Source: Promethearchaeota archaeon
GTDB taxonomy: Archaea; Asgardarchaeota; Hermodarchaeia; Hermodarchaeales; Hermodarchaeaceae
Direction: 5' to 3'
Assembly (NCBI GenBank): GCA_048938385.1
Contig: JBHLMG010000035.1
Location: 1-13,737, forward strand
DNA: 13,737 nt
Numbering within the stretch: the stretch's first letter is position 1; the number at the start of each line of letters is the position of its first letter. The position numbers and the translations under genes are program-made. Positions 4,728 to 13,737 of this stretch are shown in pieces. The notes under the pieces are model-generated. The model saw only the letters and a list, made by a program, of their open reading frames with translations. It had not been told where the DNA came from and ran no database searches.

Positions 4728-5309
4728 CTAGTCTGTCGCATCTGGACCGAGAGGATGCCACAATTCGAGGGCGCGGCGGCGCTTTAGCTGTCGGCGTTGC
4801 GAAGTGAGGTAGCGGTTGATGGTGGAATGTTCAGCGCCACGAAGTAAGCGGACAATCGCGTTCACCGCGACTTGCTGGTTTTCCACCTCTCCGATCACTC
4901 CAATCGTGTTACCCATCACCGCGATGTAGGTGTCGGTGAGCTCCTCAATGGTACGCCGAGTCTTGCCCCCTTTGCCAATGACGCGCCCCTTTAAGCGACG
5001 GATTTGGTTGGGCGTGCTACCAAACTCTTCGAGGTCCACAATCCGCAGGTACACATCATCATCGAGTAAGGCAAAAGCTCGTTGGGGACTGAACCCCCGG
5101 CCAATGGCTTGAGTGATGTCACGGGCCTTCCAGACCGCTAGAGGATCCTCGGCATCGTCAAGGGATTCGACGACGACTAAGCCATCGTCACTATCAACCG
5201 TGATGATGGTGTGCGTGATTTTTTCCAGCTCACGCTTAATTCCCCCGTTAGGACCAATAAGCACCGCGATACGGTTTTTCGGAATTCTGATGCGTGCGTC
5301 AGCTTTCAT
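4728..5309 (-). CDS. KH-domain pre-rRNA processing protein (Dim2/Pno1/Krr1 family)
   Basis: RIAVLIGPNG, AIGRGFSPQRA, RLKGRVIGKGGKTRRTIE and GAEH motifs. ATGA overlap with the RIO1 stop codon. Confidence 0.95.
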   Translation of the reverse strand: MKADARIRIPKNRIAVLIGPNGGIKRELEKITHTIITVDSDDGLVVVESLDDAEDPLAVWKARDITQAIGRGFSPQRAFALLDDDVYLRIVDLEEFGSTPNQIRRLKGRVIGKGGKTRRTIEELTDTYIAVMGNTIGVIGEVENQQVAVNAIVRLLRGAEHSTINRYLTSQRRQLKRRRALELWHPLGPDATD

Positions 5310-6085
5310 TTTATTTTCCTCTGGCGAATTTGTTCTAAGATGTCTTCGAACTCAAGGTGAGGAATGTCAAACTGGTCAAAGTAGGCCAGTATATTCCGGA
5401 CATCCCGCTCAAAGAAGGCTTCACTGTGAGGGTGATCTCGCACCACGGCCTGTGAAATATCGATGATGACGGGTTTCTTCAGCAGCATGATGTTGTATTC
5501 ACTCAAGTCCGCGTGCACTAGCTGTGCATTGTGATACAACCTGGAAATCGCTTTGAGGATTTCTTTACGCGCGCGTTTGGGTTTTTTCGGCGCCTGTTGT
5601 TGCATCGTGGGAGCGGGTAACCCGTTTTTCCCAATGAACTCCATTATAAGGATATTTCGTTGCACATGGAAGGGCCGTGGCACCCGCACCTTGGCTTCGT
5701 GAGCGCGCAGTAGGTTCTTGTATTCCTTTGAAGCCCAAGCGGTAATGAGTCCCGCTCGGGACTTGGGAATCCGCTGAAAACGGGGATCGCCCTCCAAATA
5801 CAAAGTGATTCGTTTGAAATTGAAGGTAGCGATGCGATAGATCTTGATAGCGACATCCTTGCCGTCGGATCGAACGCCCCAGTACACATTCGCTTCTTTC
5901 CCCGTCGAAACGACTCCATTTACAACATCGATGATGCCTTTGTTGAACATCTGATACAGGGTGAGGAGGGTTTTCGTATCAAAAACCGATTCAATGACCT
6001 GTCGATCCTCAGATCGTTTTATCCGCATTCTCGCGTCCGCTATGCGATCATCGATCCGATCGAGTTTATCTGACAGGGAGGTCAC
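5306..6085 (-). CDS. rio1: RIO1 serine protein kinase/ATPase
   Basis: STGKEANVY, AIKIYR, YLEGDPRF, LVHADLSEYNI and IIDISQAV motifs. The start codon is uncertain. Confidence 0.97.
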   Translation of the reverse strand: MTSLSDKLDRIDDRIADARMRIKRSEDRQVIESVFDTKTLLTLYQMFNKGIIDVVNGVVSTGKEANVYWGVRSDGKDVAIKIYRIATFNFKRITLYLEGDPRFQRIPKSRAGLITAWASKEYKNLLRAHEAKVRVPRPFHVQRNILIMEFIGKNGLPAPTMQQQAPKKPKRARKEILKAISRLYHNAQLVHADLSEYNIMLLKKPVIIDISQAVVRDHPHSEAFFERDVRNILAYFDQFDIPHLEFEDILEQIRQRKIK

Positions 6086-6184
6086 CTCCTACACACGACT
6101 TCAGCATTAACATAGTAATCACGGTGCGGCGTGGAAAGCGCCAATCCGGACCTGATAAAGGTTGTTGTTCCCTCGCCTCACCTG

Positions 6185-6886
6185 TCATTCAGGTCCTTTG
6201 GTCTGATCTGTTTCCAGGTTCAAGGCAGTTTCCAGGTTATGGATGATCATCCCGACAATTGTTGAGGTTGGCAAGAACTCCGGATGCAGACTCACTGTTT
6301 CATTAGCAAGATCCGTTATCCGGGTTGACAGTTCACCATGCGCAAAGCCACCAACTAATACTAGGGGTCGCGCTTCGGATACCAGTGTTTTTGCCAAGGC
6401 TAGTGGCGTCATGGGCGTACCTGTTGGGGTAAGGACAATAGTCCGGGATGGAGTGAGCTCGTTCAGGTACTTCTCTAAGGTTCCTGCATACAGTTCAAGG
6501 AGTGGCGAACCAGATTGGGGGACACGCCCTGCTTGGAGTAGCTGTTCGATGAGTCCAACGAACCGCGCTTCCCGGCGTGGTAACCGTGTTCCCGGTCGGA
6601 TTTGAATCACTTGGTCAGCAATCGTGTGGACGAAGACCTGTAATTGCTCGTTCTGTGCTAGAACACTATCTAAGGCGATGAGGAGGCTTCGGTGAGCAAT
6701 GTCCGGGCGTCCACGCTTTTCTGAGGTGGAGAGGGCTTGTACTACCTTGGGAAATACGGCTTCATCGAGGAGAAGGTGTGCCGGTTCTTTTCCCCGCGCC
6801 TTCGCGGTGCGAAGAACAGAGGAATGCTGAACCATCTCCTCCGAAACTAACTCTAAGCTCGTTTCCACCAGTCCGAGCAATAACAT
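6185..6886 (-). CDS. nep1: Nep1/Emg1 SSU rRNA pseudouridine N1-methyltransferase (SPOUT)
   Basis: RGRPDIAH, VFVHT, RLPR...RFVGLIEQL and VGGFAHG motifs. ATG 6886 chosen because the SD sequence GGGTGA lies 7 nt upstream (the ORF track starts at GTG 6910). Confidence 0.93.
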   Translation of the reverse strand: MLLLGLVETSLELVSEEMVQHSSVLRTAKARGKEPAHLLLDEAVFPKVVQALSTSEKRGRPDIAHRSLLIALDSVLAQNEQLQVFVHTIADQVIQIRPGTRLPRREARFVGLIEQLLQAGRVPQSGSPLLELYAGTLEKYLNELTPSRTIVLTPTGTPMTPLALAKTLVSEARPLVLVGGFAHGELSTRITDLANETVSLHPEFLPTSTIVGMIIHNLETALNLETDQTKGPE

Positions 6887-6934
6887 AAAGGGGTCACCCT
6901 TTCGCGACACAGAGAAGAGATTACTCGCGGAGCG

Positions 6935-7288
6935 CTAGTCAATTTTGAGAAATCCGCGTCGTTCAAGCCAGCCTGCTTCACCTTGGGAATACCGAAAGAT
7001 GATATCGCCTCGTTGATCGGTTTGAAAATCCCAGGGGGCGACGAGCACGACATCGCCCTCACGAATCCATACGCGTTTTTTCATTGTTCCACGAATCCGG
7101 CAGAGCCGAGATTTCCCATCGGCGCATTTTACGCGGACTCGGTCATATCCGAGCAGTTGCACGGCTATGCCTAGTACTTCGCCTTCGCGGGGGATGCGGA
7201 CGCGAATCACTTCACCTTCTTGGCTAGATTGACCTTTGAAGGTACGCCTCCTGCTACCGGATTTACTTTTTTTTCGGGGTTTAGACAT
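6935..7288 (-). CDS. eif1a: Translation initiation factor aIF-1A
   Basis: QLLGYDRVRVKCADGKSRLCRIRGTMKKRVWIREGDVVLVAPWDFQ. ATG 7288 has the SD sequence AGGAG 7 nt upstream, and there is a TATA-like TTTTAAAT at 7333-7340. Confidence 0.97.
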   Translation of the reverse strand: MSKPRKKSKSGSRRRTFKGQSSQEGEVIRVRIPREGEVLGIAVQLLGYDRVRVKCADGKSRLCRIRGTMKKRVWIREGDVVLVAPWDFQTDQRGDIIFRYSQGEAGWLERRGFLKID

Positions 7289-7372
7289 GTTCAAACTCCT
7301 TGTTCAGATGCGCTACAAAGGGGACGACCACTATTTAAAACTGCGCAGCAACCAAGTATTTCTCGGGTAAAG

Positions 7373-8443
7373 TTACTCCTCACGGTCGGGAAGGAGGATT
7401 AAGCCATCGTTCCATTCGAGGGCTGCCACCGTTGAACCCAAAGGCAAGTCCGTACCAGGGTGGGGCAGGTCATAAACTGTGTAATCTTCTTGGTCCATTA
7501 ATTGGTATACCCCATCAACCAGTGATATCACTTGAAATGAATGGACTTGATCGGTTAGATGCTGTGTATCAATATCCGCGAGTTCTTTGGGGCTGAGTGA
7601 TTGACGGGAGTGGGACTCTAAGTTGATGAGTGTGTAGCGACCGTTTCGAAGACCGGTGATCATGTGGGGATGGTCCTTGAAGATGAAAACATCACCCACT
7701 TGGAGGGGTGGAAACCGGAGAGAGTAGGTGTCCCGTCGCAGGGGTTTTCCATCTCGGGCTCGGCCAGCGACTTTGCTGGAAATTCCGAGGATTAATCCAA
7801 AGGTGTCAGCAAGGTGTTTGGCTAGACTTTTGCACAGGCGCCCGGACACACACTTGACATCAAATCCTCCTCGCGTTTCTTTAATCCTAAACGCTGAAGG
7901 GGGTAAATCTTGGTTTTCTAGGCGTTGGTTAAGGTGGGTGAATATTTCCTCAGTTTGGTCAGGGGTGAGTCGACCGGCTGAGGTTCGGATTTGGATTATT
8001 GCTTCGAAGTAGCCACCCGCGGTTTGTCGACAATGCGTGCAAAGAACGGGTGTGATAGGAATGTCGACGGTCCCAGTTTCTTGGTAGTGGAGGCTCTCAA
8101 TTCGAGCGGTGACCTGCGCCTTGATACGCTTGGTCTTCGACAGTGTAGTTGGGGCAGGGTCGGCGAGTTCCACCTCAAAGGTCGCCGGTTCGCTCGGAGT
8201 AAAAAGCGGGTCCAGTAAATCACACACCATCGAATAGGTATGCTCGGCCCGCGAGGTTGATCCTTGTCGAATCCAATGCCCACTCGTATAGTAGGCTTGG
8301 CAGCGTGGACACACCTTGGCTTCTGGTGATCGGCGGAGAACAATGAGGGGATGCTGTTCGAAGTAACACGGTGCGCAAAAGCCTTTCACAAAGGGTCGTG
8401 ATTCAGCGGGTTCTTGACCGCACTTGGGACAACTTCGTGTCAT
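7373..8443 (-). CDS. nmd3: NMD3-family LSU maturation factor
   Basis: Four CxxC motifs (CPKC, CAPC, CPRC, CTHC), the signature YFEAIIQIR, and a C-terminal eIF5A-like segment (QLMDQEDY). Confidence 0.93.
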   Translation of the reverse strand: MTRSCPKCGQEPAESRPFVKGFCAPCYFEQHPLIVLRRSPEAKVCPRCQAYYTSGHWIRQGSTSRAEHTYSMVCDLLDPLFTPSEPATFEVELADPAPTTLSKTKRIKAQVTARIESLHYQETGTVDIPITPVLCTHCRQTAGGYFEAIIQIRTSAGRLTPDQTEEIFTHLNQRLENQDLPPSAFRIKETRGGFDVKCVSGRLCKSLAKHLADTFGLILGISSKVAGRARDGKPLRRDTYSLRFPPLQVGDVFIFKDHPHMITGLRNGRYTLINLESHSRQSLSPKELADIDTQHLTDQVHSFQVISLVDGVYQLMDQEDYTVYDLPHPGTDLPLGSTVAALEWNDGLILLPDREE

Positions 8444-8449
8444 CGTGGT

Positions 8450-8755
8450 TCATTTCGTCACTACTACTTGCGCATGGGGGATGTTCTGAATACGAATGAT
8501 TCCGCGTTCGTGGATTAGCGCAGCCTTGAGAGCTTCTTGAACAATGCGCTCACCTACGATATTTGCAATAGTAGCCTGTTGCATCGCGATGATGCTCTCT
8601 TCGAGGGACACGAGTTTACCTTTGTAGAAGGCTTCACTGACATGGATGCAACGGTCCCCTTCTTCGAAGAACTGTCCAAGAAGTTCTTGGTCACAGATGG
8701 CGACGATGTATTCGCCTTCACGCTGTATCTGGTTCATGTATACTTGCATATACAC
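8450..8755 (-). CDS. DUF424 family protein
   Basis: IVAICDQELLG, FYKG, ATIANIVG and IPHAQ motifs, with the usual synteny next to aIF-2beta. Alternative start at ATG 8749. Confidence 0.92.
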   Translation of the reverse strand: MYMQVYMNQIQREGEYIVAICDQELLGQFFEEGDRCIHVSEAFYKGKLVSLEESIIAMQQATIANIVGERIVQEALKAALIHERGIIRIQNIPHAQVVVTK

Positions 8756-8778: not shown

Positions 8779-9399
8779 CTATCCCTTCAACGGCTTACGC
8801 CCACCACACGCACTACATACTAGCATAAGGAGGCGATCTTCACGCCGCATCTCAGTGTCTGGACGATGGCAAATTGGACACACGACGAATTCCTCGGTAT
8901 ACTTGGCAACGAGTTCCTCTAAAGCGCGTGAAGTGAATCGCCCGTTAAAGAACGCTTGCGTGCCACTGACTTCTCCAGCGGTTGCTAATTCATGGGAGAG
9001 GAATCGAATAAGGTGTTTGGGATCACGTCGCAGCGTGTCAGTAAGGTCTTTGAAGTTTCGAATCACTGTTCGAGTCCCCTGAATGAAGGAATCTACTTCC
9101 GGAACTTGAAACCTGGGTTGGTCAAAGACCTCAGGCGGAATCTGCTCACGCGCACGATGGAGAAGGGCATCATAATCCAAGGTGCTCGATACCTTCGCTG
9201 GCGCCTTCGCTTTGGATGTTGCGGCCGTCTTTTTCGGTGTAGCTTTAGGTTTGGCTTTGCTTGCAGGCGTTTTAGGTTGAGTAGCTTTTTTTGCACGGGG
9301 TTGAGCCTTAGCGGACGCAGGTTTCTTCTTTGCAGGAGCTTTAGCCTTGGGCGTGGCTTTCTCGCTTTTAGTGGTTTTCTTCGTCGTTTTTGGGGGCAC
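8779..9399 (-). CDS. eif2b: Translation initiation factor aIF-2 beta with a Lys-rich N-terminal extension
   Basis: Core DYDALLHRA...RFQVP...GTRTVIRNF...ELATAG...CPICHRPDT...CSACG. GTG 9399 is preceded by the SD-like GAGGCGA, and there is a TATA-like TTTATGA at 9444-9450. Confidence 0.95.
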   Translation of the reverse strand: MPPKTTKKTTKSEKATPKAKAPAKKKPASAKAQPRAKKATQPKTPASKAKPKATPKKTAATSKAKAPAKVSSTLDYDALLHRAREQIPPEVFDQPRFQVPEVDSFIQGTRTVIRNFKDLTDTLRRDPKHLIRFLSHELATAGEVSGTQAFFNGRFTSRALEELVAKYTEEFVVCPICHRPDTEMRREDRLLMLVCSACGGRKPLKG

Positions 9400-9553
9400 G
9401 GCATATCGCCTCGAAATCTAGCATTCAACTGTAGGATTGGAACCTCATAAAGCATCTGATTAACGCAACGAGTCAAGTACCAAATGAAGGCTCCTGAATG
9501 TCTAGGACTATTTTGAGCTGATACAAGAATCCCACAAAAGCCTTTGGTTTCGC

Positions 9554-10437: not shown

Positions 10438-13400
10438 TTAACCCTCGGTGAACGGATCCACTGCTCCCTCAGTGGGGCTCGCAGGGGAAGGAACATCTCG
10501 TTGCGATGGTTCGAGGCATCCCTCAGTGTGCAACTGCTCGAGGGCGTTGGCAACGGCGAATTTCTTGTCTTGCCCGAATTTCTCGATGGCGGCAATGAAT
10601 AGTTGCGGCAAGAAAACGCGACCCTCGGTATCCGCTAGTTTCAAAGCGAGGTCATACACTTTCCGGGCAAATCCTCGGGATGGTGAATGCACGCATTCAT
10701 AGGAGAGGAGGAGCTCGCTGTGGAAACTCTCTTCAACGATGGTGTGGGCGGGGTCAAAGATATCAATGCGTCCATCAAAGCTGGCAAGCTGGGAGCTAAA
10801 CTGGGTTTCAAACTCCGTTGTGAACCGTGCTAGCGAATCCGTGACTTCTTCACTCGGGGATGCGTCGAGGATTAACACGCTCACGACAGACTGCCCCTCC
10901 CGAAGACTGAGGTGCAAATCTTTGTAATCAATGTCACGAAGCTGGGATTCTCGATCCAGCTCTCCGGACAACTCGCTGTAGAAGGAATTCACTGCGGCAA
11001 TAAACCCTGACAACAAGGCACTGGGAATTTCACCCCCGGTGAAGTTGTAAGTGAAAATTGGAAGCCCTGTTTTAGCGTACATGACGAAAAGCGTGCGAAG
11101 GTCCATCAACCCCATCATGCGTTGAGCCCAAACTCCTCCCGCCTCTTCAACCGCCATTTGTTTGGCGAGTTTCTTCGGTCGTACCCGCTTGATATACAGC
11201 ACTCGTGCAATGATTGCTACAAGGACAACTAGGACGATGAAGGGTAGGAGCGCGAGCAGGAGTTCAACCCACCAGGGGAGCGGACTGGGTGGACTTAAGG
11301 TCGAGAAGGTGCTCACGGTAGTATACGCCAGTTCACGGGACCCAAAATAGGTGGCGTTGGCCCACACTTGGGGCGCGTTTGATCCATCTCCCAACGCCTC
11401 GTCAGGGTACGATGGAAGTAGGACAATCAGAATCCGCATCCCCGTGGCGTCAGTCGTCACCGTCTCTGACACTAGCGTCACATCAGTGCCATTGGCGTGA
11501 TGCATCCACACGACTACATCAACATCTGCTCCCACAATAGCCGTCCCGTTTGGAAAGGTGAGCTGTACAGTAATGGGAATTTCTTGGGCGGGTTGAATAT
11601 TTGCTGGAATGTACACCGTGAGGGTTGGGTTGAGTTTCGCCAGCACCGTTAAGCTAAGAGTGATCGTTTGGTTCTCATGGTGGGTGCGTTGCGCGTAAAT
11701 ATCGAGACTATAGGTGGTTGGTGTGATACCAGTGAGGTCCAAGGTCAACTGGTAGACACCTCCTCCAACTGATACGAGGGGATATATGGTGCTCTGAAAG
11801 ACTGCCCACACCGTTGCCGAAGGAATTCCCGAACTGGTTTCCGTGTTAGTAAAGGTTACATCTAAAGTCAAGGTTTCGTTTTGGTATTCACTCGGCGTAT
11901 AGTCATCGTTTTCCGGCGTGAGTGAAGTTGGCCACACTAGATGAAAGCTCTCAGAAAAGACTTGGGGCAGGTAATTTTCGACGCTGATATTGAAGCTGAT
12001 CGTCCAGTAACCGACGCTAGCCCCTGTGGTGATGCACTGAACGGTATAGGTTCCGTCCCCGTTATCTACGGGACTGATGAGGGTCCAATTGCCTTCGATT
12101 TGGGCGCCAACGAGACCCTGAGCAGATAAATCCGAATAGGTTACCAGCAGGATAAACGCGTCATCGTAAAGTAGCGGTGACGCTGATTGAATCACCACAT
12201 TCACCGTAGCAGGCCGTATCAACACCTCGATATCGGTCTGATAGGTCTGCGGGTTATACCCAGGACGGGAGACGGTAATGGTGATGTTGAAGAAGGATGA
12301 GCTTCCGCTCACATTTAACATAAACTGCAGCTTGTAGGTTCCATTGTTCAAGTCAAAAGTGAAGATCGGTGTTAAGGGCGTTCCATTCTGCAAGCATGAA
12401 AATTCCGCCCCCGTGATCCCTGTCCCACCGGAGACCATCTCATAGGTTATCGTGATGTTGAAGGCGGCTCCCCCATCAACGGGAGACGGGTTGCTCCCGC
12501 TAATCGTCGTCGGTTCACCTTGCACGATGAGCGTAATTTTCAAAGTGTAGTTTTGCAAGTAAAAACCCGGTTTGGAGGCATTGACGATGAGAATGTGAAT
12601 ACCCACATCCAGAACGGTGCCCTCCAAGAGCACCGAATAGTTCCCGCCCCCGATTTGAGTGAGGGGACTAAAGAAACTCGGACCTGTGATGTTCACTATT
12701 GCATCCGCAATACCTCCTCCCAGTGGAGTCCAAATCGAATAGTTGACCTCTAAGGTCACAGCTTCGGTGTAGTTAATGGTAAGCGTCGTCCAATTGGCTA
12801 CGAGCTGCGTCTTGGACCATAAGGTGAGCGACACCGTTGTGGAGGCATTCCTATATCCAGCGCGATCAGCGCTCACCGTCCCTATATGGACACCTCGATC
12901 AAGATTCATAGCCAAAGTATCCAACGCGCTTTCATAATACCCTCCATTTACATCGCTGAGACTGTAAGTGGTACCCTCAAAGGTGACATTGACTTCAGCG
13001 TTTTCTATCCCAACTGTATTGTGGGCATCTTCGTAATAGACTCGGATGATGACATTATCTCCAATGAGGCTCGTGTAAGGACCAAGGTCGTCTGTAACGG
13101 TAGTTGGATATACGAGGGAAACGCTGCTGACTCCTACACCGACATGATAGGTGTTATTCCAGACCACTTCACAACGCATGGTTTCGTTGCCTATTCCGAT
13201 GCCTAATGGCGTGAATGGAGTAAAGTTCAGCAATCCGCTTATGTCAGGAACATCTGCTGTCTCACCGAAGGCTGTTCCACTTTCATCATAGGGCGTGAAA
13301 CGGCCTTCCCCGTTTGTGAACACATTTACCTGACTACTAATGTAGAGCGAATCGGTAATGTCGATTACTTGCCCTGTGACATCTAGCCCGTTCCGGTAGA

Positions 13401-13737
13401 TTACAACATTTTGGATGTAGTTTGCATCTGAGGCGGTGATCAGCCAGAGAGTGCTGTTGCCTGCACCTCCCAGCTCATCGATAAACACCCAGCCCGGTGT
13501 GCTCTTACCGTCGTCAGCGGTATATGTAGCCGGCAGCCCTCCCTTAAAGGCCCCGGTGACTGTCCAGCGATCTGGTAAGGTGAAATTGAGAGTACGGCTA
13601 TTGGCGTTTGCTCCAATGCTGGGGTATGACACTGCGGTGGTAATGTTCCAGTCAGCTGGGTTTCCCTCTGTGACTTGAAAGCTCGGGACCCCCTCGAAGG
13701 TGTAAGAAAGAGAGGCGTTGTATCGAAAGTTAAACAA
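10438..13737 (-). CDS. Large surface glycoprotein (5'-truncated): Ig-like repeats, one TM helix, cytoplasmic longin-like domain
   Basis: The frame is open to the window edge. Repeated beta-sandwich units with NGGYY/GGGNY/NNGTY/GDGTY/GGGVY and PGY/PGF motifs; more than 20 NxS/T sequons; TM WWVELL...RVLYI followed by KRVRPKK; then TGLPIF...LLSGFIAAVNSF. Confidence 0.9.
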   Translation of the reverse strand: MFNFRYNASLSYTFEGVPSFQVTEGNPADWNITTAVSYPSIGANANSRTLNFTLPDRWTVTGAFKGGLPATYTADDGKSTPGWVFIDELGGAGNSTLWLITASDANYIQNVVIYRNGLDVTGQVIDITDSLYISSQVNVFTNGEGRFTPYDESGTAFGETADVPDISGLLNFTPFTPLGIGIGNETMRCEVVWNNTYHVGVGVSSVSLVYPTTVTDDLGPYTSLIGDNVIIRVYYEDAHNTVGIENAEVNVTFEGTTYSLSDVNGGYYESALDTLAMNLDRGVHIGTVSADRAGYRNASTTVSLTLWSKTQLVANWTTLTINYTEAVTLEVNYSIWTPLGGGIADAIVNITGPSFFSPLTQIGGGNYSVLLEGTVLDVGIHILIVNASKPGFYLQNYTLKITLIVQGEPTTISGSNPSPVDGGAAFNITITYEMVSGGTGITGAEFSCLQNGTPLTPIFTFDLNNGTYKLQFMLNVSGSSSFFNITITVSRPGYNPQTYQTDIEVLIRPATVNVVIQSASPLLYDDAFILLVTYSDLSAQGLVGAQIEGNWTLISPVDNGDGTYTVQCITTGASVGYWTISFNISVENYLPQVFSESFHLVWPTSLTPENDDYTPSEYQNETLTLDVTFTNTETSSGIPSATVWAVFQSTIYPLVSVGGGVYQLTLDLTGITPTTYSLDIYAQRTHHENQTITLSLTVLAKLNPTLTVYIPANIQPAQEIPITVQLTFPNGTAIVGADVDVVVWMHHANGTDVTLVSETVTTDATGMRILIVLLPSYPDEALGDGSNAPQVWANATYFGSRELAYTTVSTFSTLSPPSPLPWWVELLLALLPFIVLVVLVAIIARVLYIKRVRPKKLAKQMAVEEAGGVWAQRMMGLMDLRTLFVMYAKTGLPIFTYNFTGGEIPSALLSGFIAAVNSFYSELSGELDRESQLRDIDYKDLHLSLREGQSVVSVLILDASPSEEVTDSLARFTTEFETQFSSQLASFDGRIDIFDPAHTIVEESFHSELLLSYECVHSPSRGFARKVYDLALKLADTEGRVFLPQLFIAAIEKFGQDKKFAVANALEQLHTEGCLEPSQRDVPSPASPTEGAVDPFTEG

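What the first reader, a model, noticed from the sequence alone, without database searches (positions are those of the whole stretch)
9181..9399. aIF-2beta carries a 73-aa polybasic, histone-H1-like N-terminal tail
Seen: the 73 codons before the conserved core encode 22 Lys, 1 Arg and only 1 acidic residue. The rest is mostly Ala/Pro/Thr/Ser, with internal repeats (KATPK x2, KAKAPAK x2) and a TPKK motif. An SD-like site and a TATA-like box lie upstream of GTG 9399. Established: typical archaeal aIF-2beta is about 140 aa and lacks the N-terminal lysine boxes through which eukaryotic eIF2beta binds eIF5, eIF2B-epsilon and RNA. Inference: in a probable Asgard archaeon this could be a precursor or analogue of the K-box tail, or a disordered RNA-binding or condensate-forming tail. 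Caveats: the core begins with an in-frame TTG at 9180 (MDYDALL), which could be an alternative or ancestral start giving two isoforms, and the Lys residues are dispersed rather than in poly-K runs.
Basis: partly seen in the sequence, partly recalled or inferred. Interest (0 to 1): 0.8.

Follow-up and report, generated by a model that had tools for sequence, protein, structure and literature searches.

The report
Lysine-rich tail on Asgard aIF2-beta
The only aIF2-beta gene of this Hermodarchaeota (Asgard) archaeon really does encode a floppy, strongly positive 73-residue tail, conserved across its family; it most likely works as a general RNA tether, one of a small set of such tails on this lineage's ribosome and RNA polymerase proteins, and is not an ancestor of the eukaryotic K-boxes.

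Summary
Codons 1-73 (window 9399-9181, minus strand) give 22 Lys, 1 Arg and 1 Glu (net +22) in front of a normal aIF2-beta core.

The tail is translated:
- All 16 other species genomes of the family that have the gene keep the frame open.
- The start position is conserved (GTG in one genus, TTG in the other).
- A conserved GAGG Shine-Dalgarno-like site and a TTTAT(G/C)A box lie upstream.
- Most relatives have no in-frame start near the core.
- TTG 9180 is an ordinary, non-conserved Leu codon.

About 60 metagenomic relatives (some labelled Hermodarchaeota) carry tails of 32-81 aa. Their sequence drifts (26% identity against 77% in the core), but the composition is held. AlphaFold predicts disorder.

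The tail is not a K-box homologue:
- The longest Lys run is 3.
- There are no acidic or hydrophobic flanks.
- No W2 domain was found in the genome.
- No tail was seen in the checked genomes of the other 27 sampled Asgard families.

Comparable tails occur in this genome on uL15, uL5, eL24, eL33 and RpoD only. The three tested (eL33, eL24, uL15) are likewise confined to this family. Other Asgard families put a Lys-rich extension on aIF2-gamma instead.

Best reading: a non-specific electrostatic RNA tether, untested.

This scan had already noted similar tails on aIF2-gamma and eL33 in other Asgard genomes and on RpoD here.

The parts
8779..9399 (-). aIF2-beta gene, 206 codons plus stop; the only aIF2-beta match in this genome
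   Evidence: PF01873, E 7.9e-33; one match in G000; core residues 74-205 align to archaeal aIF2-beta 1nee_A residues 5-136, E 3e-41
9181..9399 (-). 73-codon Lys/Ala/Pro/Thr/Ser tail (22 K, 1 R, 1 E; net +22), predicted disordered
   Evidence: AlphaFold2 model has no secondary structure and pLDDT 46-53 over residues 1-73; frame and composition conserved in relatives
9397..9399 (-). GTG start codon; its position is conserved (GTG in 13 of 13 genomes of the genus including this one, TTG in 4 of 4 of the sister genus)
9406..9412 (-). Shine-Dalgarno-like GAGGCGA (GAGG at -13 to -10), conserved as GAGGCGA or GGAGGC in all 17 species
9445..9451 (-). TATA-box-like TTTATGA at -52 to -46, conserved as TTTAT(G/C)A in all 17 species
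   Evidence: A promoter role is inferred from position and conservation and has not been shown
9178..9180 (-). TTG codon for Leu74, not a conserved start; relatives have D, T, E, S or F at this position
9142..9174 (-). Helix alpha-1 (residues 76-86), which aligns to the N-terminal helix of archaeal aIF2-beta and to the LPYSELL segment of yeast eIF2-beta
   Evidence: That this helix binds the gamma subunit is established for aIF2 and inferred here
8800..9120 (-). Alpha/beta core and C4 zinc ribbon (PF01873, residues 94-200; Cys174, Cys177, Cys195 and Cys198 invariant)
4728..8755 (-). Co-oriented downstream genes: DUF424, NMD3, aIF1A, Nep1/EMG1, RIO1 kinase and a Krr1/Pno1-like KH protein, forming a ribosome-biogenesis and initiation cluster
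   Evidence: The order aIF2-beta, DUF424, NMD3 is also seen in the distant tailed relative L054

Best explanation
The gene encodes the sole, functional aIF2-beta of a Hermodarchaeota-type Asgard archaeon. Translation starts at GTG 9399. The protein has a 73-residue intrinsically disordered polylysine tail directly in front of the helix that anchors beta to aIF2-gamma.

The tail belongs to a family-specific set of polybasic tails added to RNA-handling machines: aIF2-beta, large-subunit proteins uL15, uL5, eL24 and eL33, and RNA polymerase subunit D.

The most likely mechanism is inferred, not shown. The tail acts as a sequence-independent electrostatic tether to RNA: 16S rRNA near the aIF2-gamma site on h44, initiator tRNA, or mRNA. 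This would raise the on-rate or residence time of aIF2 or the ternary complex on the small subunit.

It resembles the eukaryotic eIF2-beta N-terminal tail in position and charge, and in that tail's reported non-specific RNA binding. It is not a homologue of the tail and does not serve its eIF5/eIF2B-epsilon docking function.
For: Shown:
- Translated tail. The frame is open in 17 of 17 species genomes of the family that have the gene. The start position is conserved, with conserved SD-like and TATA-like elements. In most relatives (for example L002, L004, L006, L012, L015-L017) it is the only in-frame start before the core.
- Selection on composition rather than sequence. Over 17 species the tails are 33-73 aa, K 26-40%, R 0.6%, D+E 1.8% and net +8 to +24. 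Pairwise identity is 26% in the tail against 77% in the core. Glu and Arg are each one transition away from Lys codons yet stay almost absent.
- About 60 metagenomic homologues carry tails of 32-81 aa with a conserved M-P-x-K-x-T-K-K beginning.
- The tail is predicted disordered.
- It precedes the helix that aligns to the first helix of solved aIF2-beta and to yeast eIF2-beta near residue 127.
- In this genome such tails occur on ribosome, RNAP and IF proteins only. The eL33, eL24 and uL15 tails are long in this genus, shorter in the sister genus and not seen in 15 other families.
- Other Asgard families with a tail-less beta carry Lys-rich N-terminal extensions on aIF2-gamma (checked examples from families f9, f13, f21, f23, f25, f27). 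This family's gamma is tail-less.

From the literature:
- Lys-rich low-complexity tails on prokaryotic ribosomal and DNA-binding proteins are linked to nucleic-acid binding (PMC6821194).
- aIF2-gamma sits on h44 (PMC7005279).
- K-boxes also bind RNA non-specifically (PMC3434475).
Against: The sister genus has shorter tails with net charge only +8 to +13, and some short-tailed metagenomic relatives have net charge only about +3 to +5, so a strong polycation is not strictly required. Low-complexity tails at protein ends can persist with little function. The near-exclusive use of Lys over Arg is not explained by simple RNA binding.
Confidence: 0.6

Rival explanations
1. The tail is an evolutionary precursor or functional equivalent of the eukaryotic K-box domain. 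It would dock an acidic partner protein (an eIF5 or eIF2B-epsilon W2-like domain or an analogue) that controls the GTPase cycle of aIF2.
For: The tail occupies the same topological position as the eukaryotic N-terminal tail, immediately before the gamma-binding helix. It has a strong positive charge, and the organism is an Asgard archaeon.
Against: No W2 domain (PF02020) was found in this 89.8%-complete genome. The longest Lys run is 3, whereas eukaryote-type sequences have runs of 6-8 (P0217, P0221). The tail has 1 acidic and almost no hydrophobic residues, whereas K-box modules need conserved acidic/hydrophobic flanks (PMC12439599). The tail is present in 1 of 28 Asgard families sampled and was not seen in the genomes of the others that were checked. 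Alignment of the tail to yeast eIF2-beta has only low posterior support.
Confidence: 0.07
2. The tail is a nearly neutral low-complexity expansion, tolerated at the free N-terminus of an abundant protein and without a specific role.
For: Sequence and length turn over rapidly (32-81 aa; 26% identity). Similar expansions occur on several abundant proteins of the same lineage. The sister genus has much shorter versions.
Against: The tail is retained in every family member examined while the core diverged to about 58-70% identity. Glu, Asp and Arg are strictly excluded although each is a single transition from Lys codons. The first eight residues and the start signals are conserved. The tails are confined to nucleic-acid machines and are not spread at random over the proteome.
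Confidence: 0.15
3. The tail binds DNA or drives RNA-protein condensates, as a histone H1 tail does. It would co-localise aIF2, ribosomes and RNA polymerase and so couple transcription to translation.
For: Its composition resembles H1 C-terminal tails and it has one TPKK motif. RNA polymerase subunit D has a comparable KKPAAKKAAA tail.
Against: There is no linker-histone globular domain or other DNA-binding domain. Four of the six tailed proteins are large-subunit ribosomal proteins, whose natural polyanion is rRNA. Nothing here distinguishes DNA from RNA binding.
Confidence: 0.12
4. The tail is not made: translation starts at TTG 9180 and the upstream open frame is accidental.
For: TTG 9180 is in frame at the first core residue. 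Some gene callers produced 127-aa truncated products for close relatives.
Against: TTG 9180 is not conserved, and most relatives have no in-frame start near the core. The upstream frame, its start codon, the SD-like site and the TATA-like box are conserved in 17 species. There is no SD-like motif in front of 9180.
Confidence: 0.03

Closest known systems
Eukaryotic eIF2-beta N-terminal tail with three K-boxes (yeast SUI3, human EIF2S2; for example PDB 3j81 chain l, 6k71)
   Same: A disordered, Lys-rich N-terminal extension placed directly before the helix that binds the gamma subunit. K-boxes are also reported to bind RNA non-specifically (PMC3434475).
   Different: K-boxes are runs of 6-8 Lys with conserved acidic/hydrophobic flanks that dock the W2 domains of eIF5, eIF2B-epsilon and 5MP (PMC12439599). 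Here the Lys residues are dispersed (longest run 3), acidic and hydrophobic residues are almost absent, no W2 domain was found, and the tail is confined to one Asgard family.
Canonical archaeal aIF2-beta (M. thermautotrophicus 1NEE, P. furiosus 2D74, S. solfataricus 3CW2/2QMU)
   Same: The core (residues 74-205) aligns end to end with E 3e-41 to 1e-16. It has the same helix, alpha/beta domain and C4 zinc ribbon.
   Different: The solved archaeal aIF2-beta proteins, and most of the nearest database representatives, begin 1-10 residues before the first helix. This protein has 73 extra residues.
Lys-rich low-complexity tails of prokaryotic nucleic-acid-binding proteins (ribosomal proteins such as bL21, HupB, topoisomerase I, Ku; Ntountoumi et al. 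2019, PMC6821194) and histone H1 C-terminal tails
   Same: At least 30% Lys, an Ala/Pro/Thr/Ser-rich terminal low-complexity region on a protein of the translation machinery. Composition is conserved while sequence is not.
   Different: aIF2-beta does not appear in that survey's table of the annotations with most such regions. The tail lacks the H1 globular domain.
Lys-rich N-terminal extensions of aIF2-gamma in other Asgard families (loci L056-L063)
   Same: The same heterotrimer, the same kind of tail (60-110 aa; strongly basic in L059-L061), and also at an N-terminus.
   Different: The extension is on the gamma subunit, and some are mixed-charge or carry an extra HhH-like motif (L056). They occur in families whose beta is tail-less.

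Membership tests
aIF2-beta / eIF2-beta (Pfam PF01873) | Match to the IF2B/IF5 domain above the curated cut-off | tested here: met
   113.3 bits against a cut-off of 27, residues 94-200
aIF2-beta / eIF2-beta (Pfam PF01873) | N-terminal helix followed by an alpha/beta domain and a C4 zinc ribbon, colinear with solved aIF2-beta | tested here: met
   Residues 74-205 align to 1nee_A residues 5-136 and 2d74_B residues 6-138. The model has helix 76-86 and a ribbon with invariant Cys174, Cys177, Cys195 and Cys198
aIF2-beta / eIF2-beta (Pfam PF01873) | Partner subunit aIF2-gamma present in the genome | tested here: met
   A 419-aa aIF2-gamma lies on contig C15 (PF09173 match of 93.5 bits). Binding between the two subunits was not tested
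Eukaryotic eIF2-beta K-box N-terminal tail | Three runs of consecutive lysines (about 6-8 each) | tested here: not met
   The longest Lys run is 3. Eukaryote-type hits P0217 and P0221 show runs of 6-8
Eukaryotic eIF2-beta K-box N-terminal tail | Conserved acidic/hydrophobic segments flanking each K-box (PMC12439599) | tested here: not met
   The 73 residues hold 1 acidic residue and 1 hydrophobic residue beyond the initiator
Eukaryotic eIF2-beta K-box N-terminal tail | A W2-domain partner (eIF5 or eIF2B-epsilon) encoded in the genome | tested here: not met
   PF02020 gave no match at E <= 1 in the genome, which is 89.8% complete
Eukaryotic eIF2-beta K-box N-terminal tail | Position immediately N-terminal to the gamma-binding helix | tested here: met
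   Residues 74-83 align to the LPYSELL helix of yeast eIF2-beta
Histone H1-like protein | Winged-helix linker-histone globular domain | tested here: not met
   No Pfam match other than PF01873 and weak zinc-ribbon hits
Histone H1-like protein | Lys/Ala/Pro/Ser/Thr-rich disordered tail with S/TPKK motifs | tested here: met
   30% Lys and one TPKK. This shows a resemblance in composition only
Prokaryotic Lys-rich low-complexity tails on nucleic-acid-binding proteins (PMC6821194) | A terminal low-complexity region with at least 30% Lys on a protein of the translation or nucleic-acid machinery, conserved among orthologues | tested here: met
   Nucleic-acid binding itself cannot be tested with these tools

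The most novel reading that the evidence does not exclude
Asgard archaea repeatedly, or ancestrally, equipped the aIF2 heterotrimer with a polybasic N-terminal RNA-binding tail. The tail is on beta in Hermodarchaeota and on gamma in several other families. The eukaryotic eIF2-beta N-terminal tail would descend from such a tail, with the K-boxes later sharpened and co-opted to dock the acidic W2 domains of eIF5 and eIF2B-epsilon.
Probability: 0.1. Interest if true: 0.8.

Novelty: new variant of a known kind. Interest (0 to 1): 0.5.

Why it matters
The N-terminal lysine-rich domain of eIF2-beta is described as eukaryote-specific (PMC6412873). This finding shows that one whole Asgard family has independently placed a long polybasic disordered tail at the same spot on aIF2-beta, and that other Asgard families put one on aIF2-gamma.

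This gives a natural system for testing what a bare polycationic tail does for e/aIF2 without eIF5 or eIF2B. It also offers a plausible raw material for the origin of the K-boxes. On the practical side, automatic gene calls for these genes disagree: both 127-aa truncated forms and upstream-extended forms exist. The conserved GTG/TTG start identified here corrects them.

Tried and rejected
- Tandem Repeats Finder on 9100-9450 found no array, so the tail is not a recent slippage array.
- The repeated peptides are only mildly above shuffled expectation.
- An ESM Atlas search of the tail alone gave no usable feature hit, only meaningless matches among disordered linkers.
- N-terminal methylation idea: the PPK start resembles the X-P-K motif of NTMT-type N-terminal methyltransferases (motif recalled from memory). 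No PF05891 match reached the cut-off, and many relatives have PSK, SSK or PAK, so I dropped it.
- The search for the 16S rRNA 3' end, to confirm the anti-SD sequence, failed because the 16S 3' end is not in this assembly.
- Twenty non-family Asgard loci with unusually long open frames upstream of aIF2-beta were fetched. None is Lys-rich and nearly all have an ATG within a few codons of the core. The same holds for ten more from families f16, f19, f21, f22 and f23.
- Complex prediction was not used, because no protein-protein binding claim is made.
- Literature searches found no description of a tailed aIF2-beta.

Full report
**Observation.** Window 8779-9399 (minus strand) is a 206-codon ORF that starts at GTG 9399.
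- Residues 94-200 match Pfam PF01873 (eIF-5_eIF-2B) at 113 bits.
- Residues 74-205 align end to end with solved archaeal aIF2-beta (1nee_A residues 5-136, E 3e-41; 2d74_B; 3cw2_K).
- The 73 residues before that contain K22, A17, P11, T11, S6, V2, Q2, E1 and R1, for a net charge of +22. The longest Lys run is 3. KATPK and KAKAPAK each occur twice, and there is one TPKK.
- The core is charge-neutral and uses Arg far more than Lys (R15, K5).
- The peptide repeats are only slightly more than shuffling gives (P about 0.01-0.02), and there is no DNA tandem repeat.

**Is the tail translated?** The frame opens six codons before GTG 9399. The only other in-frame ATG/GTG/TTG ahead of the core is TTG 9180.

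I searched 40 related genomes. All 16 other genomes of the same GTDB family that have the gene (12 of genus g1, 4 of genus g2) keep a long open frame upstream of the core. Genomes of 15 other families of the phylum do not.

At the homologous position, the 12 other g1 genomes all have GTG followed by P-P-K, S-S-K, P-S-E or similar. All 4 g2 genomes have TTG followed by P-A-K-P-K.

Seven to thirteen bases upstream, all 17 species have GAGGCGA (g1) or GGAGGC-like (g2). About 46-52 bases upstream, all have TTTAT(G/C)A. In this window these elements are at 9406-9412 and 9445-9451.

In most relatives (L002, L004, L006, L012, L015-L017) that start is the only in-frame start before the core, so the core cannot be made without the tail. 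The codon equivalent to TTG 9180 is D, T, E, S or F elsewhere. It is an ordinary Leu codon, not an ancestral start.

The genome has a single aIF2-beta match, so the tailed protein must be the working one. That the upstream elements act as SD site and promoter is inferred from position and conservation.

**Spread and mode of evolution.** A search of the 5.8-billion-protein collection found about 60 close homologues of 166-214 aa. NCBI labels among these hits include Candidatus Hermodarchaeota and the umbrella name Promethearchaeota.
- These homologues have N-terminal tails of 32-81 aa made of K, T, S, A and P. Most have 0-3 acidic residues (a few short-tailed ones have 5-6), and the tails begin with a conserved M-P-x-K-x-T-K-K.
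- Over the 17 species genomes the tails are 33-73 aa with 26-40% Lys, 0.6% Arg, 1.8% Asp+Glu and net charge +8 to +24.
- Mean pairwise identity is 26% in the tail against 77% in the core.
- Glu and Arg are each one transition from a Lys codon. Their near-absence in tails that have otherwise diverged almost beyond alignment argues for selection on charge and on Lys specifically (inference).
- AlphaFold2 with a 47-sequence alignment gives no secondary structure and pLDDT 46-53 for residues 1-73. A confident helix at 76-86 and the alpha/beta plus zinc-ribbon core follow, at pLDDT 85-96.

**Phylogenetic limits.** I searched 251 genomes of the phylum, covering 28 families and 63 genera; 234 had a match.
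- Lys-rich upstream frames were seen in family f1 only.
- I fetched the 20 longest open frames from other families. None is Lys-rich, and nearly all have an ATG within a few codons of the core.
- Ten genomes of families whose rows were not listed (f16, f19, f21, f22, f23) were checked separately, with the same result.
- An exhaustive HMMER search of 1.84 billion representatives with the core alone found one further tailed lineage. P0093 has 41% core identity, 19 Lys in 54 residues, and the same gene order (aIF2-beta, DUF424, NMD3).
- That search also found a few mixed-charge K/E extensions, two of which carry the NCBI labels Thermoplasmata and Micrarchaeia, and eukaryote-type sequences with true poly-K boxes.

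**Is it specific to aIF2-beta?** A six-frame scan of the whole genome (40-aa window, at least 10 Lys, at most 2 acidic residues, at most 3 Arg) returned only seven ORF segments.
- The seven segments are six proteins: aIF2-beta (N-terminal tail), uL15 (C-terminal), uL5 (N-terminal), eL24 (C-terminal), eL33/L35Ae (N-terminal, about 120 aa), and RNA polymerase subunit D (C-terminal KKPAAKKAAA repeats, split across two contig ends).
- All five other proteins were confirmed by Pfam.
- A looser scan added only two short basic N-termini and several implausible frames.
- The eL33, eL24 and uL15 tails follow the same distribution as the aIF2-beta tail. They are long in genus g1, shorter in g2, and not seen in the 15 other families sampled.
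- The tail is therefore one member of a lineage-specific set of polybasic tails on RNA-handling machines.

**aIF2-gamma.**
- In this genome it is 419 aa with no tail. The six other f1 genomes sampled have open frames of 421-422 aa.
- In families f9, f13, f21, f23, f25 and f27 the open frame is often 50-120 aa longer.
- In all eight fetched examples, the extra part is a Lys-rich N-terminal extension. It is strongly basic in L059, L060 and L061, mixed-charge in others, and carries an HhH-like motif in L056.
- In the genomes checked from those families, aIF2-beta is tail-less.
- The heterotrimer thus carries a basic tail on one subunit or the other in several Asgard lineages, which points to a function at the level of the complex.

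**Comparison with K-boxes.**
- The tail sits exactly where the eukaryotic N-terminal domain sits. Residues 74-83 align to the LPYSELL helix of yeast eIF2-beta near residue 127. The alignment inside the tail has only low posterior support.
- K-box modules are runs of lysines flanked by conserved acidic and hydrophobic segments that dock the W2 domains of eIF5, eIF2B-epsilon and 5MP (PMC12439599). Here there are no runs and no such flanks.
- No W2 domain (PF02020) was found in the 89.8%-complete genome.
- With the tail restricted to one family, homology with the K-box domain is unlikely.
- K-boxes are also reported to bind RNA non-specifically (PMC3434475). That is the property this tail most plausibly shares.

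**Mechanism (inferred).**
- Archaeal aIF2-gamma contacts helix h44 of the small subunit and holds the acceptor end of the initiator tRNA (PMC7005279).
- A +22 disordered chain emerging beside the beta-gamma junction would lie next to rRNA, tRNA and mRNA.
- Lys-rich low-complexity tails on prokaryotic ribosomal and DNA-binding proteins are generally linked to non-specific nucleic-acid binding (PMC6821194).
- I therefore favour a sequence-independent electrostatic tether that raises the on-rate or dwell time of aIF2 or the ternary complex on the 30S subunit (confidence 0.6).
- The rivals are a nearly neutral expansion (0.15), DNA binding or condensate formation in the manner of H1 (0.12), a K-box-like protein dock (0.07), and no translation of the tail (0.03).

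**Novelty.** Full-text searches found no description of a tailed aIF2-beta in archaea. [quoted passage not shown] The kind of feature is known, so I rate this a new variant of a known kind with moderate interest. Earlier notes of this scan had already recorded analogous tails on RpoD in this genome and on aIF2-gamma and eL33 in other Asgard genomes. I confirmed the first independently and the other two in part.

Noticed in passing
window 9397-9399; loci L002-L017: The aIF2-beta start codon is a conserved non-ATG (GTG in all 13 genus g1 genomes including this one, TTG in all 4 g2 genomes). Nearly all tail-less Asgard aIF2-beta genes examined start with ATG next to the core. A weak start codon on a start-codon-selection factor could be autoregulatory, as with infC in bacteria; this was not tested.
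   Followed up: partly
L056-L063 (other Asgard genomes): aIF2-gamma carries Lys-rich N-terminal extensions of about 60-110 aa in at least six other Asgard families. L056 also has an HhH-like motif (GIGKATAERM...) ahead of a Lys-rich linker. These families have a tail-less aIF2-beta in the genomes checked.
   Followed up: partly
G000 contigs C4 7951-8616, C4 2865-3521, C15 37271-37690 (minus strand), C24 36822-37436, C4 15785-16702 plus the end of C15: uL15, uL5, eL24, eL33 and RNA polymerase subunit D carry polylysine tails. The repetitive RpoD tail coincides with two contig ends, so the repeat probably broke the assembly.
   Followed up: partly
window 6935-7294 (minus strand): In aIF1A the Pfam eIF-1a domain starts at residue 38. 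A basic segment rich in K, R and S (MNMSKPRKKSKSGSRRR...) precedes it. The true start (TTG 7294 or ATG 7288) was not resolved and relatives were not compared.
   Followed up: no
P0172, P0224 (representative library): Two proteins of about 340 aa whose N-terminal part looks eIF5-like by eye, followed by the region that matches the aIF2-beta core (about residues 206-331). They look like tandem or fused eIF5/eIF2-beta-like proteins of unknown origin.
   Followed up: no
P0064-P0079: aIF2-beta proteins of about 205-241 aa, labelled Thermoplasmata or Methanobacteriota, are fused to a C-terminal TRAM domain (PF01938). This is a different way of adding an RNA-binding module to the same factor.
   Followed up: no
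clusters of P0009 and P0052; P0013, P0031, P0036, P0037, P0041, P0045: Public gene calls for these aIF2-beta genes disagree. Some are truncated to 127 aa without the tail. Others are extended upstream to an ATG (MHIVRRTHV...) that lies across the conserved SD-like site.
   Followed up: partly
window 10438-13737 (minus strand): A large ORF of more than 1099 aa, open at the window end. By eye it looks like a surface protein rich in N-x-T/S sites, with one hydrophobic transmembrane-like segment and a cytoplasmic C-terminal domain. It was not examined.
   Followed up: no
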